A DNA stretch of 64,000 nucleotides from an uncultured archaeon (GTDB lineage: Archaea > Thermoproteota > Nitrososphaeria_A > Caldarchaeales > Calditenuaceae): NCBI GenBank assembly GCA_938017985.1, contig CALIKS010000004.1:54692-118691 (forward strand). Direction: 5' to 3'. A program made the position numbers and the translations under genes. The notes under the pieces are model-generated. The model had not been told where the DNA came from. It did no database searches and was given only the letters and a program-made list of their open reading frames with translations. Shown here piece by piece: positions 37,999-64,000 of this stretch (its first letter is position 1; every line of letters starts with the position of its first letter).

Positions 37999-38008
37999 GT
38001 GAGTCATT

Positions 38009-39088: not shown

Positions 39089-39096
39089 ATTTTTAT

Positions 39097-40107: not shown

Positions 40108-40111
40108 ATCT

Positions 40112-41146
40112 TCATCCCTCCTTTAAAGGTAGGTTGACAGGCATATTTAGTTCGGCTGATTTAAGAGCTGCTATGCAGACTTCTAGGCTCCTCCTCGCTA
40201 CTTCACCATCCGTCATTGGTGTTTTATCTTCCTTGATGCACTCGACAAAATGTTTTAACTCCCTATAAAATGGGTCGACTGGAAATGGATGGACAGCAGG
40301 CCTCCAAGGTAGGGATTCTGGCGAGAATCCACTAATCGACTCACTCGTAATCAGTTTAACAGGCACTGGTGATTGATTATCAAAACTAATCATCCCATTA
40401 GTACCGTCTACTTCAAAATTCATCATAAATGGATGCATTTTCGGTAATGCCCAGCTTGCTTCTACTAGGGCAATACCATTATTTTCAAATCTTAAATTGA
40501 TTAGTGCAAAGTCTTCAGCTGTTATGTCTTTATGGACGAGCTTCCTGACTACGCCATATACTCTCTTAACTTTGCTATTAAATATCCACATTAAATAATC
40601 AACATCATGAATAGCTAGGTCAATTGCGACGCCACCGCTCTGATTCTTATCTAAAAACCATGGGCTCCATTCAGGAATTGGGCCGCCTCTAAACGTTCTA
40701 GCTATTACTGGCTCACCGACCATTCCCCGATCAATTAGCTCTTTTGCTTTCATGTATTCTGGAAAAAATCTTAATACATGCCCTACCATTAACTTGACAT
40801 TATTCTTTATAGATGCCTCGATAATTGCGTCTGCCTCTTTTAATGTAAGGGCTATTGGCTTCTCAAGAAATACATGTTTGCCGGCATTCATGGAGGTTAT
40901 TGAGTAACTGGCATGCGTAGAAGTCGGTGTACAGACATCTACTATGTCTATGTCTTTTCTCTTCAATACTTCATCAATATTGTTATATGCCTCTACTCCA
41001 AATTTTTTCGAGACTTCTCTGACTTTCTCAATATTTCTACCGATCAAGGCTTTTACTTCGCATTCATTAATATATCGCCACGCTGAAAGATGAGTGGTGC
41101 CCATAAAGCCATATCCTACTATTGCCACTCCAAGTTTATCAGTCAT
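40112..41146 (-). CDS. Gfo/Idh/MocA-family oxidoreductase
   Basis: GVAIVGYGFMGTTH Rossmann motif and EKP. Confidence 0.85.
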   Translation of the reverse strand: MTDKLGVAIVGYGFMGTTHLSAWRYINECEVKALIGRNIEKVREVSKKFGVEAYNNIDEVLKRKDIDIVDVCTPTSTHASYSITSMNAGKHVFLEKPIALTLKEADAIIEASIKNNVKLMVGHVLRFFPEYMKAKELIDRGMVGEPVIARTFRGGPIPEWSPWFLDKNQSGGVAIDLAIHDVDYLMWIFNSKVKRVYGVVRKLVHKDITAEDFALINLRFENNGIALVEASWALPKMHPFMMNFEVDGTNGMISFDNQSPVPVKLITSESISGFSPESLPWRPAVHPFPVDPFYRELKHFVECIKEDKTPMTDGEVARRSLEVCIAALKSAELNMPVNLPLKEG

Positions 41147-41160
41147 GTTTTAACCCCAGC

Positions 41161-42231
41161 CTACTTGATTAATGGCAGCTTTACAGGCCTGTTTTCACTG
41201 TAAGAAATTATTGCCGCAAGAGCAGCTTCATGAGTATTTACAGCATCCTCAACGCTGCAATGAGATTCCTTATCTTTCAATATGCAGTCAACGAAGTGAT
41301 TTACTTCTCCCTCAAATGGATGGTGTCTAACGTCGGCCGTGTCTGGTAGAATTGTTGGAATCGTAACCCAGTCAGTCTGTCCTGGAAACTTGCTGGGAGC
41401 CCAGACTCTATTGTTTACTATTGTTCCCTTATCGCCAAAAATGGTTATGGGGAAATAATAAGGACTGGCGCAGTCAAAGTTTGAATTAATCTTTCCTATA
41501 GCTCCGTTTTCAAACTTCGCTAAAAGCACTTCAAGTCCATAATATTTTAAGTCCTTAACATGTCTATGACCACCTGAATATGCGAATACTTCGTTAATAT
41601 TGTTAGTCTTTTCGGCCTCTTTGCAAGAGAGCCATCTTGCAGCATCAAGCGCGTGGACGCCTGCTACTATAAAGCTACTGACACCATATTCTTTTGTATT
41701 GGCCCACTTCCAGCCTGACCACCACTCAGCAATGTGCGAGTTATATCCAGTCTCTATGTAATATACATCTCCTAAAGCCCCCTCAAAGAGGAGCGATTTA
41801 ATAGTCTGGAAGAGAGGATTCCATCTAAGGACGAATCCTACTACAGTTTTTACCCTAGACTTCCTAACGGCGTCCCTAATCATTTTTAACTGCTCTAGAC
41901 TAATGGCTATTGGTTTTTCAACTACCATGTGTTTTTTCGCCTCAGCTGCCAGTACTGCCTGCTCGACGTGTAGATGCTGCGGAGAACATATAGCGACTAT
42001 GTCCACGTTTGGGTCGTCGACAAGTTTTTGATAGTCAGTGTAGAGCTTAACATCTTTTAATCCACATTCCCTCGCCAAATTTTCACAGCTAACCATCCGG
42101 GGACTCATGAGAGCGACTACCTTTGTATGCGGGTTCTTCTCGAATGCAGGGACGTATTGCGTCGATACCCAGCCACAACCCGCAATACCTACTCCTAAAA
42201 TACGATTCTTGGACATAAAAAGTGATAACAA
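41161..42231 (-). CDS. Gfo/Idh/MocA-family oxidoreductase
   Basis: LGVGIAGCGWVS Rossmann motif and EKP. 356 aa. Confidence 0.85.
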   Translation of the reverse strand: MLSLFMSKNRILGVGIAGCGWVSTQYVPAFEKNPHTKVVALMSPRMVSCENLARECGLKDVKLYTDYQKLVDDPNVDIVAICSPQHLHVEQAVLAAEAKKHMVVEKPIAISLEQLKMIRDAVRKSRVKTVVGFVLRWNPLFQTIKSLLFEGALGDVYYIETGYNSHIAEWWSGWKWANTKEYGVSSFIVAGVHALDAARWLSCKEAEKTNNINEVFAYSGGHRHVKDLKYYGLEVLLAKFENGAIGKINSNFDCASPYYFPITIFGDKGTIVNNRVWAPSKFPGQTDWVTIPTILPDTADVRHHPFEGEVNHFVDCILKDKESHCSVEDAVNTHEAALAAIISYSENRPVKLPLIK

Positions 42232-42319
42232 AAACTATAAAATAAGTTTTTCCATAAATAGTAAGATTATACTGATAATTCAAAAGTATGGTTTATATAC
42301 AGGTATATACTTTTAAAAA

Positions 42320-43882
42320 ATGCGTGAAAATATGAGTGGTCAAGAGAAAGTTGTTTCTAGACGCAAATTCCTTGGTGCTGTAGGTGGGCTGGCGGCAGCA
42401 ACCGTTGTCGGATGGGGCCTAGCAGGGTATTACGCAGCACAACCTCCAAGAGAAGTGGTAAGGACTGTCACCCAGACCCAAACCGTGACTCAAACAGTTA
42501 CACAGACGGTGGGCGTCACCACGACCCCTCCGACTACTACGGCTACGCTTCCTCCACTTAGTAAATTCGTAGACATCGAGTGGGGGATCTGGAGCTGGGG
42601 AGTTGAGCTCTGCAACGACAATGCAAGAATCTTCAATGAGAATAACACAGACATGAAGCTACACGTAACTGACCTCGGTGCGAACTATATGGCAAACCTA
42701 TTTGCAAGATACGCGGCTGGCGACCCGCCCGACATATACTACGCTACTCCAGACATAGCATATGTCGTCCAGTATAGAAAGTGGGCAGCCGACATTGAGG
42801 ATTATTTCCCCGAGGCTAGGAGATATTTAGATGATATATACCCTGGAATGAGGGAGTTCTACATCAACCCGTTCACTGGTAAAGTTCATGGCCTCTGCTA
42901 CTGGGCTGGACCATACGTGTTTGCCTACAATAAGAGACACCTATCCGAGGCTGGAATAGGCGCTCCACCCAAAAACTATGAAGAGGTTGCTGAGCAGGCT
43001 AGAATAATAAAGCAGAAAGGAATATGCGAGTATCCAATTGGAGCGCTATGGTCATGGGGATTCCCTGCCCTTTGGTACAATATAATGTTGGGTTATCATG
43101 AGCCAAAGCCAGGGACACGCTTCCTATTTGATGAAGACTTAAATCCAATATTTGACGACAGGGGAACTCCATTCTTCGAGGCCATTAAATGGTTATTAGA
43201 AAGAGTCGTAGTGGACAAGACAATATCGCCAGGAATTAGAGAATATGACGAGTCTGGTATAACTACGGCATTGGGTTCAGGAACTGTCACATTCTGTCCC
43301 AACTTACCAGACTACGACATAGCGGGGGCCAATGTGCCAGAACTTAAGGAAAGCGGTAACATAACTATGTGCTTGAATCCGGGAACTGGTTATGCAGTAT
43401 ATCACCCAACAAACTATAGCACCTCAACCAGGTGTATGGAGAAGGGAAGAGACAACCAAATTGCAGTATGGCGAGTAATGCAATTCCTCGGAGGTAAGAC
43501 TACTAATGCTAGGCCAGACTTTGAACGTGGTGAATACTTTGTATGCAACAGGTTAATCAGGCAATACGGTGTAACTTCAGCGTATAGGCCAGTGATGGAG
43601 GACCCAACTAACAAGGAAGTCTTAAGAAAATTAAAGATAGATCCAGATCTCCTTCTCGCTCAGTATGAAAAGCTAACTACGATACTTTGGAGGGACCCCG
43701 TCCTGACGCCCTGGTGGGCTGACTGGTTTAGCTCTCCAAGTAGTGAGGCTGGAGGAAGAGTCAAACCAAAGTTTGAAGAATTCTTAACTGGCGCCAGATC
43801 ATACAGCGATGCTGATATTTTGAATTTCTTGAAGGAAATAGCAGAGGATTGGAAAAGAGCTAAGAAGGAGGCTGGAATGTAG
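42320..43882 (+). CDS. ABC transporter extracellular solute-binding protein (sugar), with Thr-rich linker
   Basis: N-terminal signal/anchor helix, then TVTQTQTVTQTVTQTVGVTTTPPTTTATLPP linker, then a family 1-like SBP fold. 520 aa. Confidence 0.8.
   Translation: MRENMSGQEKVVSRRKFLGAVGGLAAATVVGWGLAGYYAAQPPREVVRTVTQTQTVTQTVTQTVGVTTTPPTTTATLPPLSKFVDIEWGIWSWGVELCNDNARIFNENNTDMKLHVTDLGANYMANLFARYAAGDPPDIYYATPDIAYVVQYRKWAADIEDYFPEARRYLDDIYPGMREFYINPFTGKVHGLCYWAGPYVFAYNKRHLSEAGIGAPPKNYEEVAEQARIIKQKGICEYPIGALWSWGFPALWYNIMLGYHEPKPGTRFLFDEDLNPIFDDRGTPFFEAIKWLLERVVVDKTISPGIREYDESGITTALGSGTVTFCPNLPDYDIAGANVPELKESGNITMCLNPGTGYAVYHPTNYSTSTRCMEKGRDNQIAVWRVMQFLGGKTTNARPDFERGEYFVCNRLIRQYGVTSAYRPVMEDPTNKEVLRKLKIDPDLLLAQYEKLTTILWRDPVLTPWWADWFSSPSSEAGGRVKPKFEEFLTGARSYSDADILNFLKEIAEDWKRAKKEAGM
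42466..42545 (+). repeat. degenerate tandem hexanucleotide repeats encoding a (TVTQ)n / poly-Thr linker
   Basis: Repeated acccagacc/caaaccgtgact/caaacagttaca units inside the SBP gene. Confidence 0.5.
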
Positions 43883-43883
43883 A

Positions 43884-44768
43884 GTGGTCTCGAAGACGGC
43901 AACGCTATTCATCTGTCTAATTCCAGCTTTAACCCCTCTTTTTTTGTTTGGATTTTATCCCCTTACTTATGCATTTTATCTTAGCTTCACCTTCTATAAT
44001 TTAAAAACGCCAATTGAGCCGTACTTCTATGGGTTAGGTAATTACTTTGCCTTATCAGAAGACCCCGTCTTTATAAGGGCGCTGCAGGCTACGGGCCTAT
44101 TTGCGTTAATTACGGTGCCGTTGATAACTTTAATATCGCTTGGGCAAGCACTTTTGCTTGCTAGTCAGTTTAAAGGAGTCAAATATCTTCAGGTTCTCGC
44201 GCTGCTTCCTTGGGGAATACCGCTAGTCGTGAGTTCAACGGTCTATAGATTGTTCTTTGATTTTAATTTTGGTTTATTTAATGATTTAATGGTAAAACTA
44301 GGCGTTATAAATCAGTATGTTTCTTGGCTCTCGATGCCTTGGTCGGCTCTGTTTATTGTGGCGTTAGCACATATTTGGGTTAATACTCCATTACCAACGC
44401 TACTTATTCTAGCAGGTATACAATCAATACCAAAGGAACTTTACGAAGCTGCATATATAGATGGAGCGAAGACCTTTGCGCGGTTTAAAATGGTTACTTG
44501 GAATTGGCTTCGACCAATAATGCTAATAGTACTGGTCTATTCCTCACTCAGTGCATTGTGGTGTTTTGACCCAATCTATGTAATAACTGCAGGCGGTCCA
44601 GCCGACTTCACAAAGCTAATAACTTTCTACACATATGAAAAAATGTTTAGCTACCTTAACTTTGGACACGCTGGAGCAATAACAATTCTAATCCTAGGAC
44701 TAACGGGATTATTAATATACGCATACTTCAGGGCCTTGAGGCTTGGACGCGTTAGATTAAGGGTGTGA
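43884..44768 (+). CDS. ABC transporter permease (MalF/UgpA-like)
   Basis: 6 TM helices and an EAA-like loop (EAAYIDGAKTFARF). Confidence 0.85.
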   Translation: MVSKTATLFICLIPALTPLFLFGFYPLTYAFYLSFTFYNLKTPIEPYFYGLGNYFALSEDPVFIRALQATGLFALITVPLITLISLGQALLLASQFKGVKYLQVLALLPWGIPLVVSSTVYRLFFDFNFGLFNDLMVKLGVINQYVSWLSMPWSALFIVALAHIWVNTPLPTLLILAGIQSIPKELYEAAYIDGAKTFARFKMVTWNWLRPIMLIVLVYSSLSALWCFDPIYVITAGGPADFTKLITFYTYEKMFSYLNFGHAGAITILILGLTGLLIYAYFRALRLGRVRLRV

Positions 44769-44774
44769 GGCGTC

Positions 44775-45671
44775 ATGGCATTAAACACAAAAAAGTCTAA
44801 CTTGGGATTGTATATCGCGGCTCTCATAGTAGTAATTTGGATAGTCTTCCCGATTTACTGGATGATAAACCTAAGTGTGCAGACAGAGAAGGAAATATAC
44901 AGTGTTCCTCCATATTATATTCCGCCCAATCCTAATATAAACAACTACTGGTTCATCTTTGACATCGATGCTGCAGTTAAATATTTCTTAGAACAAGGCA
45001 TGTCTCTCTTCCTATTTATCCCTGGCTCGATCAAAGATTTTCCGAGAGCAATACTCAATAGCGTAATAATTGCAGGCGTGGTAATGATTTACAACCTCAT
45101 TGCCGGAACTCTCGGCTCATTTGCCTTGACTAGGATTAGGTTTAAAGGAGCCATGCCATTATTTTATCTCTCAATAGTTGGAAGATTATTGCCCCCCGTC
45201 GTCATCGCAGTCCCTTACTACGTAATAATCAGAAGCATTGGCCTGCTTGACACCTTGTGGTCAGTAATTATGGTTCATATAATGTTTACTATGCCCTTCA
45301 CAATATGGATATTAAACACATACCTTCTAGGCATACCGACAGACATAGAAGACGCTGCAAGAGTAGATGGATACTCATACTTCGAGATCCTGAGAAAAAT
45401 TACTTTCCCAATCATAAAACCAGCCATTGTGGCAATCGCGATAACTTCGTTCATGATTTCCTATGGCGAATTCTTCTATGCTCTGCTGCTCACGAAGACT
45501 GCGGCATCAAGAACTATTCCAGTAATCATTGGCTCAGCAATGTCTGAGCCCAGGGTAGTTAAGGGCCTGATATGTGCCATGGGGGTCCTTGCGATGATTC
45601 CAGCAATGGCCATAATAATAATCTTCAGGAGATATTTGATAAGAGGACTTGTAGCAGGAGCAGTAAAGTAA
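44775..45671 (+). CDS. ABC transporter permease (MalG/UgpE-like)
   Basis: 6 TM helices and an EAA loop (EDAARVDGYSYFEI). Confidence 0.85.
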   Translation: MALNTKKSNLGLYIAALIVVIWIVFPIYWMINLSVQTEKEIYSVPPYYIPPNPNINNYWFIFDIDAAVKYFLEQGMSLFLFIPGSIKDFPRAILNSVIIAGVVMIYNLIAGTLGSFALTRIRFKGAMPLFYLSIVGRLLPPVVIAVPYYVIIRSIGLLDTLWSVIMVHIMFTMPFTIWILNTYLLGIPTDIEDAARVDGYSYFEILRKITFPIIKPAIVAIAITSFMISYGEFFYALLLTKTAASRTIPVIIGSAMSEPRVVKGLICAMGVLAMIPAMAIIIIFRRYLIRGLVAGAVK

Positions 45672-54589: not shown

Positions 54590-55999
54590 ATGTCTATCGT
54601 TGAGGATGTCCTTAACAAGGTGGTTGAGCTGATAGAGCCGAGCGAGGATGAGCGGAAAAAGCTTAACGAAACAGCGTCACTACTTCTCTCACTCTGCGAG
54701 AGAAGGTTCAGCGCGATTCATGGATATGTCTCCACATCAATTGAGGGCTCAGCTGCTAAGGATACATGGCTGAGAAGCAAGCCAGAGATAGACATATTCA
54801 TTCATTTCCAGCCAATAGTTAGTCGAGAAGTACTCGAGAAAATAGTTGTCGAGCTAGGCTCAGAGGTGATTAGAGATGCGGGAGGCAATAGTAGGCTCAG
54901 ATATGCCGAGCATCCATACGTCGAGGGCTTCATTAACAATATAACTGTAAACATTGTTGGATGCTACGAGGTGTCTGATGGGAACTGGATAAGTGCAGTT
55001 GACAGGACTCCCCATCATACTCGATACGTAAACTCTAGGCTCACGCCAAGCTTAAGGAGAGACGTCAGGCTTCTTAAGAGCTTCTTGACTCAGACCGAGA
55101 TATATGGCGCTGAGATAAGAGTCGGAGGCTTCAGCGGATATCTAGCAGAATTATTAATACTTCATTTCGGGGGATTTTTGGAGCTTTTAAAATCAGCTTC
55201 TAGATGGAAGCCCCCAGTAGTGATTGATCCGGAGAGAAGAGTTACTAAGAGGGAGGCGCTCTTAATATTCGCTAAGTCTCCACTTATAGTAATTGACCCC
55301 GTCGATAAGAACAGAAACGTTGCTTCAGCAGTCACGCTAACCAAGCTTTCCGAATTTATACTTGCATCAAAATTCTTCCTCGAGCGGCCGTCAGTTGATT
55401 TCTTCTTGGGAAACGCTATGCTGGAATCTATGCCTATAAACTCCTTGGCAGAGAATAGAAATCTTTTTGCAATTATTTTTAAGATTGATGAGTACATAGC
55501 TCCAGATGTTCTTTGGGGAGAACTCCGTCGCTCAGCGGAGGGAATAAAAAAGAAACTAAGTGTTGCGGGCTTTACCGTCTATAACTATGGGATAAATGAG
55601 AGTAGAGGAGAAGTGATATTGATATTTGAGCTTGACAAGCTTTGTCTTCCTTCAGTCTATCTGCATAGAGGACCGCCTGTCTGGATGGATGATGCAGCAA
55701 AATTCGTTAAGAAACATCTCTTAAGCTCAGATACTATTGCAGGTCCTTGGATAGATGGTGATAGACTATATGTCCTTAAGAAGAGGAAGGATATTTCTGT
55801 AGACGTACTCCTTAGAAATTGGTTAGCTAAGGGAGAAGTCTCAATTTCCAGACAACTGTACAAATTATTCAGTTCTTCGAAGATAGTAGTTGGATGGAGA
55901 GAAGTCATAAGACTCCTAGGGACTGGGGAACACTCCTCATTCCTAGCACGCTTCTTGGCCTCTAGGCCTCTATACATGATGGGTAAGACTGAATTTTGA
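54590..55999 (+). CDS. cca: CCA-adding tRNA nucleotidyltransferase (archaeal class I)
   Basis: EGSAAKDTWL...DIDIF nucleotidyltransferase motif and the archaeal CCA body/tail domains. 469 aa. Confidence 0.85.
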   Translation: MSIVEDVLNKVVELIEPSEDERKKLNETASLLLSLCERRFSAIHGYVSTSIEGSAAKDTWLRSKPEIDIFIHFQPIVSREVLEKIVVELGSEVIRDAGGNSRLRYAEHPYVEGFINNITVNIVGCYEVSDGNWISAVDRTPHHTRYVNSRLTPSLRRDVRLLKSFLTQTEIYGAEIRVGGFSGYLAELLILHFGGFLELLKSASRWKPPVVIDPERRVTKREALLIFAKSPLIVIDPVDKNRNVASAVTLTKLSEFILASKFFLERPSVDFFLGNAMLESMPINSLAENRNLFAIIFKIDEYIAPDVLWGELRRSAEGIKKKLSVAGFTVYNYGINESRGEVILIFELDKLCLPSVYLHRGPPVWMDDAAKFVKKHLLSSDTIAGPWIDGDRLYVLKKRKDISVDVLLRNWLAKGEVSISRQLYKLFSSSKIVVGWREVIRLLGTGEHSSFLARFLASRPLYMMGKTEF

Positions 56000-56766
56000 C
56001 GCGTATACAGATAAACCCGGAATACTTAATTCTCATAAATATTGACGAGTTAGAGTTTGATGAGTCAATGCTTCTGCAACTATCTTACCCTAAGCCGAAT
56101 AATGAATATGCACGCTTAGTGTGCGACTCTCTAAGACAGCTTGGTGTTGAAGGTGTATACATAGACAAGTCGAGTAAATTAATGATTGTGGGTAAAGGCT
56201 TCCGTAACATCGTGGTAGCGTGCAGACATCGCGGAGAATTCGCATGTGCCAAGATTAGAAGGATTGACTACGTCGTTAAAGATACTAGTAGAGAGGCAAG
56301 CATGCTTAGATTGGCCAACAGTGTCAAAGTGGGTCCAAGACTGATTGGTCATCACGGGCCAGTACTATTGATGGAGCTTGTTGAAGGTGAGGACCTAACG
56401 TCCTGGCTCCTGAGTCTGAGTAAAAAAGAATTTAGTTATGCGCGTGAGATAGTGTCTGAGCTCCTCAAGCAGTGTCATAGACTTGACATGGCGGGAATAA
56501 ATCACGACGAACTGAGCGATGCAAGTAAGCACGTCCTAAAAACTAGAAGCGGAGTAGTTATTCTTGATTTCGGCTCTGCCAACATTACTTCAAAGCCATC
56601 AAACTTAACTTCAATAATTAATTATTTATTCCATGGTCCTGCTCGCCGGGTCTCTACGGAAATCATAGGAATAAGAGAGCCGCCAGCCGAGGTTTTAAGG
56701 AATTACAAATCAAACCTCTCAAGCGACAGTTTCGAAAATATTTATCGTATTATTTTTAATGTGTAA
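55996..56766 (+). CDS. atypical protein-kinase-like protein (RIO/Bud32-like fold)
   Basis: Gly-rich loop VGKGFRNIVV, ACAKIRR (VAIK-like Lys), a catalytic loop INHDELSD and DFG (ILDFGSA). The catalytic-loop Asn is not evident. The start overlaps the cca stop (ATGA). Confidence 0.5.
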   Translation: MTRIQINPEYLILINIDELEFDESMLLQLSYPKPNNEYARLVCDSLRQLGVEGVYIDKSSKLMIVGKGFRNIVVACRHRGEFACAKIRRIDYVVKDTSREASMLRLANSVKVGPRLIGHHGPVLLMELVEGEDLTSWLLSLSKKEFSYAREIVSELLKQCHRLDMAGINHDELSDASKHVLKTRSGVVILDFGSANITSKPSNLTSIINYLFHGPARRVSTEIIGIREPPAEVLRNYKSNLSSDSFENIYRIIFNV

Positions 56767-56802: not shown

Positions 56803-57750
56803 ATGAAGAGACCCGCACAAGGTATTAAGAAGAGGAGATTCCTACTAAGGAATCAAATGAGATACAATGTTTTGTCAGCAATTGGGAATACTCCGCTCAT
56901 AGACATCACAGAGGTTTTAGGAGCGCCAAAAGGTGTAAGAATTTTCGGCAAGGCTGAATACATGAATCCAGGCGGCTCAGTTAAGGATAGGCCCGCGTAC
57001 TACATAGTTACTGATGCGCTTAGGAAGGGACTACTGGAAGCAGGTAAAAAGATACTTGACGCTACTTCAGGAAACATGGGGATTGGACTAGCACTCGTCG
57101 CGGCCGCCTACGGAATACCATGCAGACTAGTCGTTCCAGGCAACATAAGCATGGAAAAACAAAAAACACTCAAGCTTCTAGGAGCAGAGCTCACGATAAG
57201 CAACCCGCTCGAGGGCATAGACGGCGCGATTAAGAAGGCACGAGAAATATATCAAGAAAATCCTGAACAATACTTCTATGCAAATCAATATGACAATCCA
57301 GCAAACATTAGGGCTCATTATGAGACGACTGGTCCTGAGATAATTGCCCAGACAGGGGGCAAGATAACGCACTTCATTGCAGGTGTAGGTACGTCAGGTA
57401 CACTCATGGGTGCTGGTAGAAGGTTAAGGGAAAGTAAACCAAACATAAAACTGATAGAGGTCCAGCCGGATGATCCTCTGCACGGTATAGAGGGCTTGAA
57501 ATACATGGAGAAGGCTATAAGACCAGCAATCTACGACCCGAGTTTCGCTGACGAATTATACAGAATAAAGACAGAGGATGCAATGAATTATTCAAAACTC
57601 TTAGCCAAGGCAGGAGTATTGGCAGGGCTATCATCAGGAGCTAACGTGGCAGCTGCTAAGATGGTTGCAAGCAGCCTGAAGAGAGGAACGATCGTGACTA
57701 TGCTTCCAGATGGTGCGAGTAGATACATTGATTTACTCATTAGTGAATAA
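56803..57750 (+). CDS. cysK: cysteine synthase / O-acetylserine (or O-phosphoserine) sulfhydrylase, fold-type II PLP enzyme
   Basis: SVKDR PLP-lysine motif, GTSGT loop and GNTPLI N-terminus. The likely start is MRYNVLS at 56857. Confidence 0.85.
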   Translation: MKRPAQGIKKRRFLLRNQMRYNVLSAIGNTPLIDITEVLGAPKGVRIFGKAEYMNPGGSVKDRPAYYIVTDALRKGLLEAGKKILDATSGNMGIGLALVAAAYGIPCRLVVPGNISMEKQKTLKLLGAELTISNPLEGIDGAIKKAREIYQENPEQYFYANQYDNPANIRAHYETTGPEIIAQTGGKITHFIAGVGTSGTLMGAGRRLRESKPNIKLIEVQPDDPLHGIEGLKYMEKAIRPAIYDPSFADELYRIKTEDAMNYSKLLAKAGVLAGLSSGANVAAAKMVASSLKRGTIVTMLPDGASRYIDLLISE

Positions 57751-57773: not shown

Positions 57774-58205
57774 ATGTTAGGCTTGGTGATAAGAATTCCA
57801 AGCAAAATAATAAGCGAAATGTCGATGCATGCATTGAAGACTTATCCAGAAGAGGGCTGCGGTCTACTTATCGGCGTCGTAAATTCAGGCATAAAAGAAG
57901 TGATAAAATGCATACCAATGAATAATGTATATACTGGCTCACGGAGAAATCGATATTCTATAGACCCTTTAGAATACATGAGGATAGAAGATGAAGCATA
58001 TAAAAATGGGTATATGGTGCTCGGCATCTTCCATAGTCATCCAGATGCGCCTGCTATTCCGAGTAAGTACGACCAAGAATATGCAGCGCCATTATTCATC
58101 TACGTCATCTTATCAATTAGAAATGGAAGAGTAGCAGAAATAGCGGCTTGGAGAGTAGCTGAATCAACTTGGGAATTCGAGCAGGAATCACTCGAGATAG
58201 TTTAA
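57774..58205 (+). CDS. JAMM/MPN+ metalloprotease (Mov34/PAD-1 family)
   Basis: EEGCGLL (Glu) plus HSHPDAPAIPSKYD (HxHx7SxxD), a complete JAMM zinc-binding motif. Lies 24 nt downstream of cysteine synthase on the same strand. Confidence 0.8.
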   Translation: MLGLVIRIPSKIISEMSMHALKTYPEEGCGLLIGVVNSGIKEVIKCIPMNNVYTGSRRNRYSIDPLEYMRIEDEAYKNGYMVLGIFHSHPDAPAIPSKYDQEYAAPLFIYVILSIRNGRVAEIAAWRVAESTWEFEQESLEIV

Positions 58206-58216: not shown

Positions 58217-59416
58217 CTATAGGCGTTGACGATAAACGTGCAGTTCCTCGCCTGTTAGTGACAGTATGACTCCGCCTATTGCCAATCTCCTTATCGTATC
58301 TCTGTAAGGAGTGTATATCCTAGCGACTTGTCTCTTTGAGTCTATGCCCATGAATAACGCAAGGCCTACCGCTGAGTCATCATCTCCTAAAACGTATGAA
58401 ACAATACCTATCCCGATATCCGAGAAGTCGACTCCCTCATGCCCAATGACCTTCTTAGAGGCTGGACAACCACATCTCTCTATATCGGATAAAACATCAT
58501 TCAGAAAATCTACTATGCTTATATGAGTTTCGTTTCTCTGTTCTAGGATTTTAAAGTTTATCCAAGATAATGGTATTGTTCTGAGAGACGCTCCTCTCAG
58601 AAACCTTGCGTAATTCATCTCTCTTATTACTCGCCTAGCCTCTTGGCTCCGGGTAGAGACGACGCTGGGAATGTCAAGCATAATAATTTCAGCTCCTGAG
58701 CGGTCCATAGCCTCTTTCAGTAATGGTCCAGGCTCCACTCCAAGTAAAGCAATGTGACTCGGCATGGCAACATCGATTAGGCTTGATTTATACCAGTCAG
58801 CAGCACCTTCACCTATCCATCCATCAGTATTTATTAAAGTAAGGGTAGTCCAATTTCTGCGTAAGATATTCATAGCCATGCATAATGCCTCGTTAGGATT
58901 GTAAGACGGCGAAGTATATCCGACAGGGTATATTTTTTCAGGCCTTAAGAGGTGAAGGGAGGGTACTGTCTTTGAGCTTTGACTTGAGTAAGCCATCGTG
59001 GTTGGAGGACAGATGTCTGATTGACCAATATCTAGGTCAACGACAACCGGCTCGATGCCACTCTTCAAGACATAATTATGCAGATAAGTAATAAGTGAAG
59101 TTTTACCCGAATCTATCCCCCCTAAAACAATTATTCGACTCTTCTCTTTCAAAGCATTTAAAAGGTTTATCCAAGTATCTGGAATAGTGTTTCCTTGCAC
59201 GATATTTATCGAGTGACCAGTGCCAAGCGACAATTCAAGCTTAGCATCGGTCAAGGCATGAATCGGCAAAACTCTATGAGGCCTAGACACAATCGTCTCA
59301 CCTTTCTTTGGCCTATGTCCAAAGATTTCTACTTCGCCTTCTAGAAGTTTTGCAGATGCAGGTCCGCCCAGCAGCAGAGTACTTCCACGCTCTAGTGTCT
59401 CCTTATTTTCAGACAT
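58217..59416 (-). CDS. Clp1-family polynucleotide 5'-kinase (GTP-binding/P-loop NTPase)
   Basis: N-terminal beta-sandwich, then a P-loop VLGGIDSGKTSL and a C-terminal domain. The architecture resembles archaeal Clp1 homologs. Confidence 0.55.
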   Translation of the reverse strand: MSENKETLERGSTLLLGGPASAKLLEGEVEIFGHRPKKGETIVSRPHRVLPIHALTDAKLELSLGTGHSINIVQGNTIPDTWINLLNALKEKSRIIVLGGIDSGKTSLITYLHNYVLKSGIEPVVVDLDIGQSDICPPTTMAYSSQSSKTVPSLHLLRPEKIYPVGYTSPSYNPNEALCMAMNILRRNWTTLTLINTDGWIGEGAADWYKSSLIDVAMPSHIALLGVEPGPLLKEAMDRSGAEIIMLDIPSVVSTRSQEARRVIREMNYARFLRGASLRTIPLSWINFKILEQRNETHISIVDFLNDVLSDIERCGCPASKKVIGHEGVDFSDIGIGIVSYVLGDDDSAVGLALFMGIDSKRQVARIYTPYRDTIRRLAIGGVILSLTGEELHVYRQRL

Positions 59417-59445
59417 TTTCTTCCACTCTTCATTAAAAATTTCTC

Positions 59446-60219
59446 TTATTTATTTTGCTTATGCGCCAGCTTAAAGACCCAACGTGTCTCCTCCTTTCCA
59501 CCATTAATATTGACTACATTGATATTTACTATGTTATCCTTAGTGATGTCTATAACGTTAAAACTATTTCCCAGTCTTCCCCTTGTCCTTACGCATGACA
59601 CTGTGCCCGCATTGACGAAGACTGTATTGTTGACCTGTATTGCGTTCCTTACATGTCTATGTCCCATCAATACTAGGTCTACTCCAGCGTCAAGGACTAC
59701 CCGTAAAACATCGCCAGCATCTTCAAGTATATCTTTCTCTCTGCCAGCGAATGGTACTGGAATAGTGTGATGATGAAGCACAAGAATTTTTAATGTATCT
59801 TCAGGTAGCGCTTTGAACTTGCTCGTAATGAGTCCCTGTCTATACCGTCCAAGCCTGCCATTATCAGAGTCTGGCACGGCGCTGTCTAGGAGTAGGAAGA
59901 CTGCCTTACCAATGCTTACCTCAAAGTCAACAGGGCCAATCATCTCTTTAAATAGGGAATCGCCATAGTTTCTTTCGTCGTGGTTTCCAGGCGTAAACAG
60001 TATTTCATGAGATATGGCTCTAAGCTTCTGGCATGCTAGCTCATAATCATCTAGTACTCCATTATCGGTAATATCGCCAGAATGAATTATTACGTCTGGT
60101 TTGGGGTCAAGTTCAGAAATTATTGAGAGGCACTTATCAAGCATGTCTGGAAGATGCATGCCAAACCTAGTGATATGAGTGTCTGAGATATGCACTATTC
60201 TTAGTTTAAAACTGCTCAT
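59446..60219 (-). CDS. calcineurin-like metallophosphoesterase
   Basis: ISDTH, SGDITD, GNHD, HHH and GHRH motifs. Lies 30 nt upstream of the Clp1-like gene on the same strand. Confidence 0.8.
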   Translation of the reverse strand: MSSFKLRIVHISDTHITRFGMHLPDMLDKCLSIISELDPKPDVIIHSGDITDNGVLDDYELACQKLRAISHEILFTPGNHDERNYGDSLFKEMIGPVDFEVSIGKAVFLLLDSAVPDSDNGRLGRYRQGLITSKFKALPEDTLKILVLHHHTIPVPFAGREKDILEDAGDVLRVVLDAGVDLVLMGHRHVRNAIQVNNTVFVNAGTVSCVRTRGRLGNSFNVIDITKDNIVNINVVNINGGKEETRWVFKLAHKQNK

Positions 60220-60261
60220 TGCAGATTAATTCCTCAATAACATTACTTATATTTATTTTAT

Positions 60262-61233
60262 TCATGTCAATAGGCGCAGGGGAATTCTAAGCATGCTGCT
60301 CAGTTTCACAAGTCTTATGCTTCTTAATACTTCATCAATCATTTTAACCTCATCATCAGTGAGTCTAAAATCTGTTGCACTAGCATTTTCCTTAACTTGT
60401 TCGGCCCGCTTTACTCCAGGTATTACTACGACTTCAGGTCTTCTTATTAACCAGTTGATTGCGATCTGTGAGGGTTTCTTCCCCCTCTTAGAGGCGATTG
60501 TTTTCAATAGGGATATTAGGGGCTGAAGTCTTTTCAGGTTTTCCCTATCGAATAATATGTTGACTTTCCTAACAGTGTCGTCTGGTAGATGGTATTGGTC
60601 GTACTTTCCTGTTAGTAGGCCCTGAGCAAGTGGGCTGTAGGCTATTATCGTAATTTTATTTTTCTCTGCGTATGGAAGTAGTTCTTTCTCTGCATCTCTC
60701 TCAATCATGTTGTACTTTACTTGGTTAGAAACTATTTCTTCACTCTTCAGGGATTCTTGAGCCTTGATGAGTTGTCTCAGGGAGAAGTTGCTTACACCTA
60801 TATGCCTGATCTTTCCCTCCTTCACGAGTCTCTCCATTGCTCTCATCGTCTGGCTTATCGGTATGAATGGGTTGGGCCAGTGAATCTGGTATAGGTCAAT
60901 TACGTCGACGCCCAGTCTTTCTAGGCTTCTCTTGCATGCTTTTAGGACGCCGTTATATGCTAAGTGGGTGGGCCATACCTTGGTCGCGATTATTACTCTT
61001 TCCCTCACTTCCTTTATTGCTTTTCCGACTATTCTCTCTGACTTTCCATCGCCATACATCTCGGCCGTGTCGATGAAGTTTATTCCCAGCTCTACTGCGG
61101 TTCTAATTGCCTCTATTATGTCTCTCTCGCCGTACTCTTTTCCCCATCCCCAGGACTTGCTTCCTGCCTGCCAGCATCCGACGCCGACCTGTGATGTTTT
61201 TAGTCCGGTTTTGCCGAGCTCTGTGAAGATCAT
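60262..61233 (-). CDS. aldo/keto reductase
   Basis: AKR TIM-barrel motifs (IDTAEMYGDG and IGVSNF). Confidence 0.85.
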   Translation of the reverse strand: MIFTELGKTGLKTSQVGVGCWQAGSKSWGWGKEYGERDIIEAIRTAVELGINFIDTAEMYGDGKSERIVGKAIKEVRERVIIATKVWPTHLAYNGVLKACKRSLERLGVDVIDLYQIHWPNPFIPISQTMRAMERLVKEGKIRHIGVSNFSLRQLIKAQESLKSEEIVSNQVKYNMIERDAEKELLPYAEKNKITIIAYSPLAQGLLTGKYDQYHLPDDTVRKVNILFDRENLKRLQPLISLLKTIASKRGKKPSQIAINWLIRRPEVVVIPGVKRAEQVKENASATDFRLTDDEVKMIDEVLRSIRLVKLSSMLRIPLRLLT

Positions 61234-62062: not shown

Positions 62063-63085
62063 TTATAGTCTTTTCACCATTGTTAGTGGCCTTATTTTCT
62101 TGACTTCTGGGTTGACGAGGTGTGGCGGCTCTTCTCCTCTTAGGACCGAGAGTAGGTTTGTGGCTGCGAGCTCGGACATCTTTGTCCTCGAGCTTATAGA
62201 TGCGCTTCCAATATGAGGTGTCAATACCACGTTTTCGAATTTTATGAGTGGGTTTTCTGGACTTATTGGCTCCTGCTCAAAGACGTCTAGTGCCGCTCCA
62301 GCTATCCATTTTTCTCTCAGCGCCTTGACGAGTGCCGCCTCATCGACTACTGGTCCCCTACTAGTGTTTATCAGGAAAGCGGTGGGCTTCATCATTCTTA
62401 GCTCTCTTTCACTGATCATGTGTCTTGTCTCCTTTGTGAGGGCTACGTGTAGCGTGACGAAGTCCGAGTTCTTTAATAGTTCTTCTAGCGAGACATAATT
62501 AGCATCGAGTTCCTTCTCTCGTTCAGGCGGGACTCTCACAACATCGTAGTATAGTATCTTCATTCCGAACCCCTTCGCCCTCTTGGCGACTGCTTGGCCT
62601 ATCCTTCCAAATCCAATGATGCCTATTGTCTGGCCATATACGTCTGCGCCTACGAAGAAGGTCGGCGTCCAAGCTATCTTCCATTTACCGGCCCTCAAAT
62701 AATTGTCTGCCTCGACTATTCTCCGAGCGACTGATAGTAGCAGCGCCCAAGTCAGGTCGGCAGTGGCCTCCGTCAAGACTCCAGGCGTGTTAGTGACGTA
62801 GATTCCCCTTCTAGTCGCCTCCTCCACGTCTATGTGGTCAAACCCGACAGAGTTTGTGCTGATTACTACAAGGTTAGGAGAGAGGTCCATAACTTCAGCA
62901 TCAATTTTGTCGCCAACCATGCATACGATGCCGTCCTTATTTCTAACTTTCTCGAGGAGTAATGAGCGTGGAGGCGGGCCGCCCGCCTCATACACGTCTA
63001 CGTCGCAGTATTGTCTAAGGAGCTCCATGTGTTGCGGAAATAAAGGCTGTGTCACAAATATTCTGGGACGTTTACTGCTCATCAT
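62063..63085 (-). CDS. D-isomer-specific 2-hydroxyacid dehydrogenase (glyoxylate/hydroxypyruvate reductase-like)
   Basis: GIIGFGRIGQAVAKRA NAD-binding motif with a catalytic R/E/H set. The track ORF extends to 63643, but the conserved family start is MMSSKRPRIFV at 63085, preceded by an AT-rich promoter-like spacer. Confidence 0.8.
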   Translation of the reverse strand: MMSSKRPRIFVTQPLFPQHMELLRQYCDVDVYEAGGPPPRSLLLEKVRNKDGIVCMVGDKIDAEVMDLSPNLVVISTNSVGFDHIDVEEATRRGIYVTNTPGVLTEATADLTWALLLSVARRIVEADNYLRAGKWKIAWTPTFFVGADVYGQTIGIIGFGRIGQAVAKRAKGFGMKILYYDVVRVPPEREKELDANYVSLEELLKNSDFVTLHVALTKETRHMISERELRMMKPTAFLINTSRGPVVDEAALVKALREKWIAGAALDVFEQEPISPENPLIKFENVVLTPHIGSASISSRTKMSELAATNLLSVLRGEEPPHLVNPEVKKIRPLTMVKRL

Positions 63086-63120
63086 TTTAGGTTTTTTATT
63101 TCTAATATTTATATTATTAT

Positions 63121-64000
63121 GTTGTTGATTTTTCCGGGCTTGGATTTCTTCGCTACTACTGTCCTTGGTCTTGAGGACGTTACTGCTAGGGAGATTGAGG
63201 AGCTGACGGGAACCGAGGCTCTGCGTGACGTTGCTAAGGTTATCTTTCATGGAAGGCCTGTCGATGCTGCCAGAGTGAACTATGCCTCGAGGTGTTGTAA
63301 CAGGGTCTTCATACTCCTCGTCAGGAAGAGTGTCGGTGGTCTCGAAGACATTGAGAAGGCAGCAAAAGAAGTAGAGTACTCGGAGTTTATCAATGACGAC
63401 CAGTCCTTTGCTGTCAGGTCTGAGAGGCATGGCTCTCATCCCTTTACGAGCATGGACATCAGTGCTGCGGTTGGTCGAAGCGTCATAGAGTCGTTTAGGG
63501 CGTCGAGAGGAGTCAGGCTCAGGGTCGACCTTAAGAATCCAGACGTCGAGCTGTTCGCACTGCTCAGGGGCTCGGAGTTCATCTTGGGACTCAACACGAC
63601 TGGCCGCTCCCTTCATCACAGGTTCTACAGGGTTTATCATCATCGTGCCGGTCTCTCCGCAGTGATTGCCGCCTCGATGCTTAGGCTTAGCGAGTGGTCC
63701 CCATCCGAATCTATTCTTGACCCTTTCTGTGGAAGCGGGACCATACCGATCGAGGCGGGACTAATGGGGCTTAAAATAGCTCCTGGCCTAGAATTCATGG
63801 ACATGGCGATGCATCGTTTAAAAATATTTAGCAAGGATGAGCTGGAGAAAGTGAGGAAGAGTCTCAGGGCATCTGAGGAGCGTTGGAAAGAGCTGAGGAT
63901 ATTTGGCTCAGACGCCTCTCTGAGAAGTATTGAGGGAGCCTTGATGAACGTTAGGGCAGCCGGGCTTGAGGGAAGGGTCAGACTCATGCAGGGCGACGTG
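63121..64000 (+). CDS. THUMP-domain tRNA (guanine-N2) methyltransferase-like (Trm-G10/Trm11-type); partial, runs off window end
   Basis: Hand-translated frame: FATTVLGLEDV... (THUMP N-terminus), HRFYRVY, and the DPFCGSGTI SAM-binding motif. Probable TTG start around 63121. Absent from the ORF track because it has no ATG and no stop in the window. Confidence 0.65.

What the first reader, a model, noticed from the sequence alone, without database searches (positions are those of the whole stretch)
58217..60219. Clp1-type polynucleotide 5'-kinase cotranscribed with a calcineurin-like metallophosphoesterase: candidate RNA end-healing module
The metallophosphoesterase (59446..60219) ends 30 nt before the Clp1-like P-loop kinase (58217..59416) on the same strand. 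A 5'-OH kinase plus a metallophosphoesterase, as a possible 2',3'-cyclic/3'-phosphatase, mirrors the kinase and phosphatase domains of bacterial Pnkp and the healing half of yeast tRNA ligase. Archaea normally ligate 2',3'>P/5'-OH ends directly with RtcB, so a separate healing pair would point to an alternative RNA repair or tRNA-intron processing route. This is relevant in a lineage with multi-intron tRNAs. The cca gene and a tRNA methyltransferase are nearby.
Basis: inference. Interest (0 to 1): 0.6.

Follow-up and report, generated by a model that had tools for sequence, protein, structure and literature searches.

The report
Clp1 kinase beside unrelated phosphodiesterase gene
Both genes are real: an archaeal Clp1-type RNA 5'-kinase and a GpdQ/Rv0805-type metallophosphodiesterase. 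They are neighbours only in this one shallow lineage, after a recent gene insertion, so nothing here shows that they form an RNA-repair module.

Summary
ORF 58217..59416(-) is a full-length Clp1-family polynucleotide 5'-OH kinase. It scores 93.8 bits on Pfam CLP1_P, has all four catalytic motifs, and its fold matches human and worm Clp1 at TM 0.72-0.73. ORF 59446..60219(-) is an intact binuclear metallophosphoesterase of the GpdQ/Rv0805/CpdA class. It is not Mre11/SbcD and not the lambda-phosphatase/Pnkp class.

The interpretation as an RNA end-healing module is not supported. The pair occurs only in the window and one sister lineage (Clp1 67-69% identical). Among 80 genomic Clp1 loci, 1 has the MPE. 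Among 80 metagenomic MPE loci, 2 have Clp1, and both belong to that same sister lineage. The next relatives (Clp1 44-45% identical) have aldo-keto reductase directly followed by clp1. This implies the MPE gene was inserted between them.

Elsewhere each gene keeps different company. Clp1 follows a DUF460/YqgF-like ORF in 73 of 80 loci. Distant MPE orthologues lie between RtcA and phosphate-uptake genes. The MPE also lacks the arginine of GDxxDRG that Pnkp and lambda-phosphatase need for monoesterase activity.

The organism is Nitrososphaeria-like, not Thermoproteales. Co-transcription in this clade is plausible but untested.

Verdict: two ordinary genes whose adjacency is fortuitous or very young. 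Interest is low.

The parts
58217..59416 (-). clp1: archaeal Clp1-family polynucleotide 5'-OH kinase, 399 aa, with an N-terminal beta domain, a P-loop kinase domain and a C-terminal domain
   Evidence: Pfam CLP1_P scores 93.8 bits over residues 99-274. The best PDB sequence hits are C. elegans Clp1, human CLP1, NOL9 and Grc3. The motifs are Walker A 99 GGIDSGKT, Walker B 129 DIGQ, clasp 197 TDGW and lid 256 RSQEAR, as defined in PMC6777427. These residues are invariant across 22 homologues. The AF2 model has pLDDT 91.4. Foldseek gives human CLP1 at E 4e-27 and TM 0.72, worm Clp1 at TM 0.73, then Grc3/NOL9; GTPases score E>1e-3.
59417..59445 (-). 29-nt MPE-clp1 spacer GAGAAATTTTTAATGAAGAGTGGAAGAAA. 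It holds a T5 run (59435..59439) inside an A/T-rich TATA-like stretch, then a degenerate SD-like GAGTGGA
   Evidence: Sequence read. In the alignment with L001, L092 and L093, the spacer length (29-30 nt) and a GTG core 9-11 nt before the ATG are kept. The T5/TATA-like stretch is specific to the window. Whether it terminates transcription, starts it or does neither was not tested.
59446..60219 (-). Binuclear metallophosphoesterase of the GpdQ/Rv0805/CpdA (class III phosphodiesterase-like) type, 257 aa
   Evidence: Pfam Metallophos 67 bits and Metallophos_2 58 bits. The best NCBIfam hit is CpdA at 62 bits, below the 225-bit cut-off; Mre11 and SbcD reach only about 20 bits. PDB sequence hits are Rv0805 (E 1.6e-13) and GpdQ (1.3e-8). 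The AF2 model has pLDDT 82. Foldseek places GpdQ and Rv0805 first, with SbcD and Mre11 at ranks 29-32. Metal and phosphate motifs are DTH13, GDITD48, GNHD78, HHH149 and GHRH186. Motif II reads GDITDNG, so there is no Arg.
60220..60261 (-). 42-nt AKR-MPE spacer with a TATA-like box TAAAATAAATATAAG (60246..60260, centred about 33 nt before the MPE ATG) and an SD-like GAGGA (60231..60235). This is a candidate promoter for an MPE-clp1 transcript
   Evidence: Sequence read. The A/T-rich box is also present in L093. This is inference from archaeal promoter architecture; no transcript data exist.
60262..61233 (-). Aldo-keto reductase. It is the neighbour directly upstream of clp1 in the next relatives, so the MPE gene lies in what is a 45-59 nt AKR-clp1 spacer elsewhere
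   Evidence: Pfam Aldo_ket_red 282.6 bits. In L082 (Clp1 45% identical) and L083-L085 (44%), the AKR gene is directly followed by clp1 with no MPE. The L082 AKR is 62% identical to the window's AKR.

Best explanation
Two separately conserved housekeeping genes became neighbours through a lineage-specific rearrangement. They are not a dedicated end-healing module.

(1) clp1 encodes a canonical archaeal Clp1 enzyme that transfers the gamma-phosphate of an NTP to 5'-OH ends of RNA and, less well, DNA. That activity was shown for Pyrococcus horikoshii Clp1; here it is inferred from fully conserved motifs and fold.

(2) The upstream gene encodes a binuclear metallophosphoesterase of the GpdQ/Rv0805/CpdA class. 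It is most probably a phosphodiesterase acting on cyclic or other phosphodiesters. It is not a phosphomonoesterase of the Pnkp/lambda-phosphatase type. This is inferred from its closest relatives and from the missing Arg in motif II.

(3) In the ancestor of the window lineage and its sister lineage, the MPE gene was inserted between the aldo-keto reductase gene and clp1. This follows from gene order in the outgroups. Since then, MPE and clp1 are probably transcribed together from a TATA-like element upstream of the MPE, which is inferred and untested.

Elsewhere clp1 is coupled to a DUF460/YqgF-like ORF, and the MPE sits in varied contexts, including RtcA and phosphate-uptake genes. The adjacency here therefore carries little functional information.
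For: - **Gene identities:**
- **Clp1-side survey:** 80 genome loci were examined, 68 of them with at least 1 kb on both sides. Only L001 carries the MPE. This holds by tblastn at E<1e-5 and E<1 and by a family HMM on six-frame translations. The only other weak hit is a different MPE-like ORF in L069, 1.1 kb away on the opposite strand.
- **MPE-side survey:** 80 metagenome loci were examined, 68 with at least 1.3 kb on one or both sides. Only L092 and L093 carry Clp1.
- **Depth of the clade:** L001, L092 and L093 are 92-99% identical to each other and 67-69% (Clp1) or 80-81% (MPE) identical to the window. The pair is therefore seen in only two sister lineages.
- **Outgroups:** L082 shares the window's order CCA, RIO-like, PALP, JAB, clp1, AKR, THUMP methyltransferase, but without the MPE. 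L083-L085 likewise have AKR directly before clp1.
- **MPE orthologues elsewhere:** orthologues 54-64% identical in Caldarchaeum, Bathyarchaeia and Aigarchaeota lie in unrelated contexts.
- **Other conserved partners:** a DUF460-like ORF directly precedes clp1 in 69+4 of 80 loci. The order CinA-RtcA-MPE-PiT-DUF47-PhoU-Pst occurs around distant MPE orthologues.
Against: - The 29-30 nt spacer, same-strand order and SD-like core are kept between the two sister lineages, and no TATA box precedes clp1 in the sister lineage. The two genes are therefore probably one transcript there, and co-expression could have been co-opted.
- Rv0805-class enzymes keep the phosphate-binding His of GNHD, which PMC2190708 links to cyclic-nucleotide phosphodiesterase activity.
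- Distant orthologues of this MPE lie directly downstream of RNA 3'-phosphate cyclase RtcA in 17 loci. That is an independent hint of a link to 2',3'-cyclic or 3'-phosphate RNA ends.
- The surveys returned only the best 80 of 584 Clp1 loci and 80 of 163 MPE loci, so rarer pairings in more distant archaea could have been missed.
Confidence: 0.75

Rival explanations
1. One reading: a genuine two-gene RNA end-healing or end-processing unit. The MPE opens or removes 2',3'-cyclic phosphate at 3' ends. Clp1 phosphorylates 5'-OH ends. The products are 5'-P/3'-OH ends for an ATP-dependent ligase or for 5'-P-dependent exonucleases.
For: - Both active sites are intact.
- The genes are on the same strand with a 29-nt spacer, and the spacing is conserved in the sister lineage.
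- The MPE has the phosphate-binding His of GNHD, as in cyclic-nucleotide phosphodiesterases.
- Distant MPE orthologues lie directly downstream of RtcA in 17 loci.
- Bacterial Pnkp shows that a kinase-plus-MPE combination can heal RNA ends (PMC2190708, PMC3675462).
Against: - Adjacency is confined to two sister lineages and arose by insertion.
- The MPE is GpdQ/Rv0805-class, not Pnkp/lambda-phosphatase-class.
- It lacks the motif-II Arg associated with monoesterase activity, so full healing to a 3'-OH is not expected.
- No RNA ligase or RtcB turned up among the ORFs scanned between 27 and 64 kb.
- RtcA linkage is absent from the Nitrososphaeria and Bathyarchaeia orthologues.
Confidence: 0.12
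2. The MPE is a phosphate-economy enzyme: a phosphodiesterase that releases phosphate or mononucleotides from diesters or cyclic nucleotides under phosphate limitation. It has no connection to Clp1.
For: - In about 28 MPE loci the gene abuts PiT (PHO4), DUF47/PhoU_div, PhoU-AbrB regulator or PstS/PstC genes. This includes loci at 54-55% identity (L098, L101) as well as the clade at 41-46% identity.
- The closest solved structure is GpdQ, described in the PDB entries as a glycerophosphodiesterase.
Against: - No phosphate-uptake genes were found among the window ORFs scanned from 27 to 64 kb.
- Contexts in Caldarchaeum and Bathyarchaeia are different again.
- The same clusters also contain RtcA and CinA, so the signal is mixed.
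Confidence: 0.3
3. The pair is part of an anti-phage defence system that combines an MPE nuclease with a P-loop NTPase.
For: Weak NCBIfam hits of both proteins to DS8/DS9 anti-phage models, and of the MPE to the PADLOC candidate PDC-S10 at 43 bits.
Against: - All scores are far below the cut-offs: 17-50 bits against 420-790.
- The Clp1 hit covers only 44 residues around the Walker A motif.
- Clp1 has no PADLOC hit.
- Both genes lie in a conserved core-gene neighbourhood (CCA, CysM, AKR) and have widespread orthologues.
Confidence: 0.02

Closest known systems
Pyrococcus horikoshii Clp1 (PhoClp1, UniProt O57936; Jain and Shuman 2009, as cited in PMC6777427) and the archaeal Clp1 group
   Same: Clp1_P kinase domain with Walker A, Walker B, clasp and lid motifs. 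Archaeal-type flanking domains. Size of about 400 aa. Found widely in TACK archaea (PMC6777427).
   Different: No biochemical data exist for this protein. In this lineage it has lost the DUF460-like upstream ORF that accompanies clp1 in 73 of 80 related loci, and it sits behind an MPE gene instead.
Eukaryotic Clp1 (human CLP1 in the TSEN complex, PDB 8hmy_E; C. elegans Clp1, PDB 4ohv-4oi1)
   Same: Full-length three-domain fold (TM 0.72-0.73, E 1e-24 to 4e-27). Same catalytic motifs.
   Different: Only 16-18% sequence identity. Archaea have no TSEN54/TSEN2-type or Pcf11 partners, by general knowledge. The physiological substrate in archaea is unknown.
Clostridium thermocellum Pnkp (kinase-phosphatase-ligase) of the Pnkp/Hen1 RNA repair system
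   Same: It combines a polynucleotide 5'-kinase with a binuclear metallophosphoesterase. The MPE shares the metal ligands and the phosphate-binding His.
   Different: In Pnkp the modules are fused and are linked to a ligase domain and to Hen1 (PMC3675462, PMC6777427). Its phosphatase is lambda-phosphatase-like and has Arg237 in GDxxDRG (PMC2190708). Here the proteins are separate, the kinase is Clp1-type, the MPE is GpdQ/Rv0805-type without that Arg, there is no ligase or Hen1 nearby, and the linkage is not conserved.
Rv0805 (M. tuberculosis) and GpdQ (Enterobacter aerogenes), class III phosphodiesterase-type MPEs
   Same: These are the best sequence and fold matches. The metal-binding motif set is the same, and there is no motif-II Arg.
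   Different: Only 19-24% identity. The family has its own invariant basic loops (GRLGR at 121-125, REKDILEDAG at 160-169, TRGRLG at 212-217), two of which are modelled with low confidence. The score is below the CpdA equivalog cut-off. The substrate is unknown.
Las1-Grc3 / LAS1L-NOL9 nuclease-kinase pair of eukaryotic ITS2 processing
   Same: A Clp1-family kinase encoded or assembled with a partner that acts on the same RNA. This is the precedent for expecting a functional partner next to clp1.
   Different: The partner there is a HEPN nuclease, by general knowledge, not an MPE. Grc3 and NOL9 are more distant fold matches than Clp1 itself.

Membership tests
Clp1/Grc3/Nol9 polynucleotide 5'-OH kinase family | Pfam CLP1_P domain above the gathering score | tested here: met
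   93.8 bits against a 26.6 cut-off, covering profile positions 1-187 of 188.
Clp1/Grc3/Nol9 polynucleotide 5'-OH kinase family | Four motifs as defined in PMC6777427: Walker A GxxxxGK[ST], Walker B [DE]hhQ, clasp [TSL]xGW, lid RxxxxR | tested here: met
   99 GGIDSGKT, 129 DIGQ, 197 TDGW and 256 RSQEAR. These residues are invariant in 22 homologues.
Clp1/Grc3/Nol9 polynucleotide 5'-OH kinase family | Three-domain Clp1 fold (N-terminal domain, kinase domain, C-terminal domain) | tested here: met
   The AF2 model has pLDDT 91.4. It aligns to human and C. elegans Clp1 at TM 0.72-0.73.
Clp1/Grc3/Nol9 polynucleotide 5'-OH kinase family | NTP-dependent 5'-OH RNA/DNA kinase activity | not testable with these tools
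   Needs a kinase assay with the recombinant protein.
Pnkp / lambda-phosphatase-type 2',3'-phosphatase (RNA 3'-end healing MPE) | Binuclear metal ligands and phosphate-binding His (DxH, GD, GNH[DE], H, GHxH) | tested here: met
   DTH13, GDITD48, GNHD78, HHH149 and GHRH186.
Pnkp / lambda-phosphatase-type 2',3'-phosphatase (RNA 3'-end healing MPE) | Arg in motif II (GDxxDRG; CthPnkp Arg237, lambda-phosphatase Arg53), tied to phosphomonoesterase activity | tested here: not met
   Motif II is GDITDNG. Asn53 replaces the Arg, and no sequence in alignment A2 has Arg at that position. The role of the Arg is from PMC2190708.
Pnkp / lambda-phosphatase-type 2',3'-phosphatase (RNA 3'-end healing MPE) | Closest relatives are lambda-phosphatase or the Pnkp phosphatase | tested here: not met
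   The top Foldseek and phmmer hits are GpdQ, Rv0805, Lmo2642 and purple acid phosphatases. No Pnkp or lambda-phosphatase entry appears in the top 50.
Pnkp / lambda-phosphatase-type 2',3'-phosphatase (RNA 3'-end healing MPE) | Fusion or conserved linkage to a kinase plus a ligase or Hen1 | tested here: not met
   The proteins are separate. Linkage to the kinase occurs in only 2 sister lineages. No ligase or Hen1 was found among the ORFs scanned at 27-64 kb.
Class III phosphodiesterase-type MPE (CpdA/Icc/Rv0805/GpdQ) | Best sequence and structure similarity is to Rv0805 and GpdQ | tested here: met
   Rv0805 at E 1.6e-13 over residues 8-242. Foldseek ranks 1-7 are GpdQ and Rv0805 at TM 0.68-0.73.
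Class III phosphodiesterase-type MPE (CpdA/Icc/Rv0805/GpdQ) | NCBIfam CpdA equivalog score (3',5'-cAMP phosphodiesterase) | tested here: not met
   62.3 bits against a 225 cut-off. The protein is a superfamily relative, not a CpdA equivalog.
Mre11/SbcD nuclease | Family-level score, nuclease capping domain and a Rad50/SbcC partner | tested here: not met
   Mre11_Halo 19.6 bits against 550, and SbcD 19.8 against 77.65. PDB Mre11 hits have E>0.06. Foldseek ranks are 29-32. The protein is only 257 aa, and its neighbours are an AKR and Clp1.
Conserved functional gene pair (operon-level module) | Adjacency retained across divergent genomes | tested here: not met
   1 of 80 Clp1 loci and 2 of 80 MPE loci have the pair, and all three belong to one sister lineage. 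The outgroups have AKR directly before clp1.
Conserved functional gene pair (operon-level module) | Co-transcription | not testable with these tools
   Only sequence hints exist: a 29-30 nt spacer, an SD-like core, and a TATA-like box upstream of the MPE. In the window the spacer also contains a T5/TATA-like stretch.

The most novel reading that the evidence does not exclude
In this lineage the MPE replaced the DUF460-like ORF as Clp1's operon partner and the two now work together on cleaved RNA. The MPE would hydrolyse 2',3'-cyclic phosphate ends, a role hinted at by RtcA-MPE linkage in other archaea. Clp1 would phosphorylate the 5'-OH ends. Together they would route endonuclease products, such as tRNA or rRNA intron and spacer fragments, to 5'-P-dependent decay or to an RtcB-independent ligation path.
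Probability: 0.1. Interest if true: 0.55.

Novelty: new member of a known kind. Interest (0 to 1): 0.17.

Why it matters
If the pair were a true healing module, it would point to an RtcB-independent RNA repair or splicing route in archaea and give archaeal Clp1 a long-sought function. The evidence says otherwise. The adjacency is a young, lineage-specific accident of gene order, so it should not be used to annotate either gene.

The useful results are negative or lateral:
- The MPE family should be annotated as a GpdQ/Rv0805-class phosphodiesterase, not as Mre11 and not as a Pnkp-like phosphatase.
- Better leads to the functions of archaeal Clp1 and of this MPE family lie outside the window. 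These are the clp1 pairing with a DUF460/YqgF-like ORF, and the RtcA-MPE-phosphate-uptake cluster.

Tried and rejected
- **GTPase instead of Clp1: rejected.** Foldseek E-values for GTPases are above 1e-3, against 1e-27 for Clp1.
- **Mre11/SbcD identity of the MPE: rejected**.
- **Defence-system reading: rejected.** PADLOC gives nothing for Clp1 and only generic MPE hits. The NCBIfam DS8/DS9 hits are far below their cut-offs.
- **A more distant MPE next to clp1 in the 80 loci.** I searched by tblastn at E<1 and by a family HMM with filters off. There was no adjacent hit. The only other hit is a weak MPE-like ORF in L069, 1.1 kb away on the other strand.
- **The DUF460-like Clp1 partner in the window and its near relatives.** An HMM search found it absent.
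- **RtcA, Trm56 and TFIIE homologues in the window.** A tblastn search gave no hits.
- **ncRNA in the locus.** Rfam at gathering threshold finds only tRNA-Arg at 19 kb.
- **tRNA introns.** There is one tRNA and it has no intron.
- **Source organism name.** The cluster look-up returned no name.
- **PDB profile search with the DUF460-like family.** It returned only a spurious uS2 hit.
- **Bacterial sigma-70 promoter/terminator scanner.** Not used, because it does not apply to archaea.
- **Window ORFs at 1-27 kb.** These were not annotated.
Full report
**1. Observation**

They are 58217..59416 (399 aa) and 59446..60219 (257 aa). The MPE stop codon TAA is at 59448..59446 and the kinase ATG is at 59416, leaving a 29-nt spacer. 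Upstream on the same strand, after a 42-nt spacer, lies an aldo-keto reductase gene at 60262..61233. Downstream, a Prok-JAB gene (57774..58205, + strand) converges on the kinase.

Both ORFs are genuine genes. The protein search returned 386 homologues for the kinase and 293 for the MPE at E<=1e-3.

**2. The kinase**

- Pfam CLP1_P scores 93.8 bits against a cut-off of 26.6 and is matched end to end.
- The only significant PDB sequence relatives are C. elegans Clp1, human CLP1, NOL9 and Grc3.
- The four motifs that Saito et al. 2019 (PMC6777427) use to define the family are all present: Walker A 99-GGIDSGKT, Walker B 129-DIGQ, clasp 197-TDGW and lid 256-RSQEAR. These residues are invariant in an alignment of 22 homologues that go down to 29% identity.
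- An AlphaFold2 model (pLDDT 91.4) superposes on human CLP1 (E 4e-27, TM 0.72) and worm Clp1 (TM 0.73). Yeast Clp1 follows, then Grc3 and NOL9. GTPases appear only at E>1e-3.

This is an ordinary archaeal Clp1. According to PMC6777427, that group is common in TACK archaea, and its Pyrococcus horikoshii member is an active, thermostable 5'-OH RNA/DNA kinase.

**3. The metallophosphoesterase**

- Pfam Metallophos scores 67 bits and Metallophos_2 58 bits.
- All metal-binding motifs are intact: DTH13, GDITD48, GNHD78, HHH149 and GHRH186.
- The best NCBIfam model is CpdA at 62 bits, far below its 225-bit cut-off. Mre11 and SbcD models reach only about 20 bits.
- The best solved relatives by sequence are Rv0805 (E 1.6e-13, nearly full length) and GpdQ.
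- A model with pLDDT 82 gives GpdQ and Rv0805 as Foldseek ranks 1-7. Lmo2642 and purple acid phosphatases follow. SbcD and Mre11 are at ranks 29-32. No Pnkp or lambda-phosphatase entry is in the top 50.

The second refutation condition, an Mre11/SbcD orthologue, is also not met. The subtype still matters for the healing idea. Keppetipola and Shuman (PMC2190708) attribute the phosphomonoesterase activity of CthPnkp and lambda-phosphatase to an Arg in motif II (GDxxDRG). They note that Rv0805 lacks this Arg and is essentially a diesterase. They link the His of GNH[DE] to cyclic-nucleotide phosphodiesterase activity.

The window protein, and every sequence in alignment A2, has GD(I/L)T(D/E)NG, so the Arg is absent while the His is kept. 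By inference it could open a cyclic phosphodiester. It is not expected to remove the resulting monoester, so it would not complete healing to a 3'-OH.

The family carries its own invariant basic loops: GRLGR at 121-125, REKDILEDAG at 160-169 and TRGRLG at 212-217. Two of these loops are modelled with low confidence. Their role is unknown.

**4. Is the pair conserved?**

This is the decisive test, and the answer is no.

- *From the Clp1 side.* A scan of one genome per GTDB species gave 584 Clp1 loci, of which the best 80 were retrieved. Sixty-eight of these have at least 1 kb on both sides. Only L001 has the MPE next to clp1. This holds by tblastn at E<1e-5 and E<1 and by a family HMM run without filters on six-frame translations.
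- *From the MPE side.* A metagenome scan gave 80 loci with orthologues 41-81% identical. Only L092 and L093 have Clp1.
- *Depth of the clade.* L001, L092 and L093 are 92-99% identical to one another. They are 67-69% (Clp1) and 80-81% (MPE) identical to the window. The pair therefore exists in just two sister lineages, and the whole neighbourhood (CCA, RIO-like, CysM-like, JAB, AKR) is collinear between them anyway.
- *Outgroups.* The next relatives show what happened. In L082 (Clp1 45% identical) the order is THUMP methyltransferase, AKR, clp1, JAB, PALP, RIO-like, CCA, TauE, phosphoribosyltransferase. That is the window's order minus the MPE. In L083-L085 (44% identical) AKR is again directly followed by clp1. 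[quoted passage not shown]
- *MPE orthologues elsewhere.* Orthologues 54-64% identical in Caldarchaeum, Bathyarchaeia and Aigarchaeota MAGs sit in unrelated contexts without Clp1.

**5. What each gene keeps company with elsewhere**

I clustered the ORFs of the 80 Clp1 loci. A protein of about 217 aa lies immediately upstream of clp1 on the same strand in 69 loci, and an HMM recovered four more. The gaps are mostly -17 to +18 nt, many of them 1-, 4- or 17-nt overlaps. Twenty of 23 sampled members weakly match Pfam DUF460, and seven match Tex_YqgF. DUF460 is an archaea-specific RNase H-like family related to YqgF/RuvX and Tex (Majorek et al. 2014, PMC3985635). This ORF is absent from the window and from L001, L082 and L083.

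For the MPE, the orthologues at 41-46% identity show a recurring order: CinA, RtcA (Pfam RTC, 266 bits), MPE, PiT/PHO4, DUF47, PhoU-AbrB regulator, PstS, PstC. RtcA is directly upstream in 17 loci (median gap 44 nt) and PiT is downstream in 20 (median gap 100 nt). PhoU-type genes also abut the MPE in two loci at 54-55% identity.

These contexts give two non-exclusive hints for the MPE: RNA 3'-phosphate or cyclic-phosphate ends, and phosphate economy. Neither context involves Clp1.

**6. Co-transcription**

In the sister lineage the MPE-clp1 spacer is 29-30 nt. It lacks an A/T box and has GAGGTG(A/G) 9-15 nt before the ATG. The GTG core is invariant in all four sequences. This fits an internal cistron.

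In the window the same spacer has mutated to AAATTTTTAAT. This contains a T5 run at 59435..59439 that could act as an archaeal terminator or a TATA-like element. A TATA-like box, TAAAATAAATATAAG at 60246..60260, lies about 33 nt before the MPE ATG and has a counterpart in L093.

An MPE-clp1 bicistron is therefore plausible but unproven. Even if it is real, it is young.

**7. Context claims**

- The CCA-adding enzyme is confirmed.
- A THUMP/UPF0020 methyltransferase starts at 63140(+) and runs off the window.
- Both are on the opposite strand from the pair and in separate transcription units.
- The lineage is Nitrososphaeria- or Aigarchaeota-like according to the labels of all close relatives. 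It is not Thermoproteales.
- The window's single tRNA has no intron.
- No RtcB, RNA ligase, archease or splicing endonuclease was seen among the ORFs scanned between 27 and 64 kb. The region from 1 to 27 kb was not annotated.

**8. Verdict**

The proposed functional coupling rests on an adjacency that is not conserved and that arose by insertion. It also rests on an MPE of the wrong subtype for complete 3'-end healing.

I put about 0.75 on two independent housekeeping genes that are fortuitous, recently created neighbours. I put about 0.1-0.12 on a real, lineage-specific end-processing pair.

In novelty terms these are new members of known kinds, and interest is low. The two by-products, the clp1-DUF460-like operon and the RtcA-MPE-Pho cluster, are outside the window. 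They are better leads to the unknown roles of archaeal Clp1 and of this MPE family.

Noticed in passing
L002-L080 (e.g. L002:5322-5978, L075:5355-6008), directly upstream of clp1; not in the window: In 73 of 80 Nitrososphaeria/Bathyarchaeia Clp1 loci, an ORF of about 217 aa lies directly before clp1 on the same strand, often with overlapping stop and start codons. It weakly matches DUF460 and Tex_YqgF, which have an RNase H-like fold. No paper in the searched library mentions both DUF460 and Clp1. It is a candidate true partner of archaeal Clp1. By general knowledge, RNase H-fold nucleases leave 5'-P ends, so the logic differs from Las1-Grc3.
   Followed up: partly
L124-L171 (e.g. L158:3407-4432 RtcA, then the MPE at 4478-5200, then PiT): Orthologues of the window's MPE at 41-46% identity sit in a recurring cluster: CinA, RtcA (RNA 3'-phosphate cyclase), MPE, PiT/PHO4, DUF47, PhoU-AbrB, PstS, PstC. 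The cluster links this MPE family to both RNA 3'-end chemistry and phosphate uptake. The taxonomy of these contigs was not determined.
   Followed up: partly
window 56803..57750 (+) and 57774..58205 (+): A CysM-like PLP enzyme (TIGR01138 cysM, 305 bits, below cut-off) is followed 23 nt later by a Prok-JAB/JAMM protein with a desampylase-like hit. This recalls the mec/CysO/CysM sulfur-carrier cysteine pathway, by general knowledge. No ThiS/MoaD-like ORF of at least 60 aa was seen beside them. The pair is conserved in L001, L082, L092 and L093.
   Followed up: no
window 54590..55999 (+) and 55996..56766 (+): The CCA-adding enzyme gene overlaps by 4 nt a 256-aa ORF with weak RIO1/Bud32-like kinase similarity. 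This coupled pair is conserved in L001, L082, L092 and L093.
   Followed up: no
window 62063..63643 (-) and 63140..63997 (+): The mechanical 526-aa ORF is a D-2-hydroxyacid dehydrogenase whose Pfam domains start at residue 195, so its real start is probably internal, near 63085. The freed space holds the 5' part of a THUMP/UPF0020 methyltransferase on the + strand, cut by the window end.
   Followed up: yes
window 31225..32532 (+): A MiaB/CDKAL1-type radical-SAM methylthiotransferase with UPF0004, Radical_SAM and TRAM domains. It is another tRNA-modification gene in the window and is unrelated to the locus.
   Followed up: no
window 34815..45671: A sugar-utilisation island: four GFO/IDH/MocA oxidoreductases, a xylose-isomerase-like TIM barrel protein, two ABC ATPases, a solute-binding protein and two permeases.
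   Followed up: no
L086/L087 and L088/L089, 4-6 kb downstream of the MPE: In both a Caldarchaeum MAG and a Bathyarchaeia MAG, the MPE orthologue lies within about 5 kb of a TFIIE-alpha plus Trm56 gene pair. This may be a remnant of the MPE's ancestral location.
   Followed up: no
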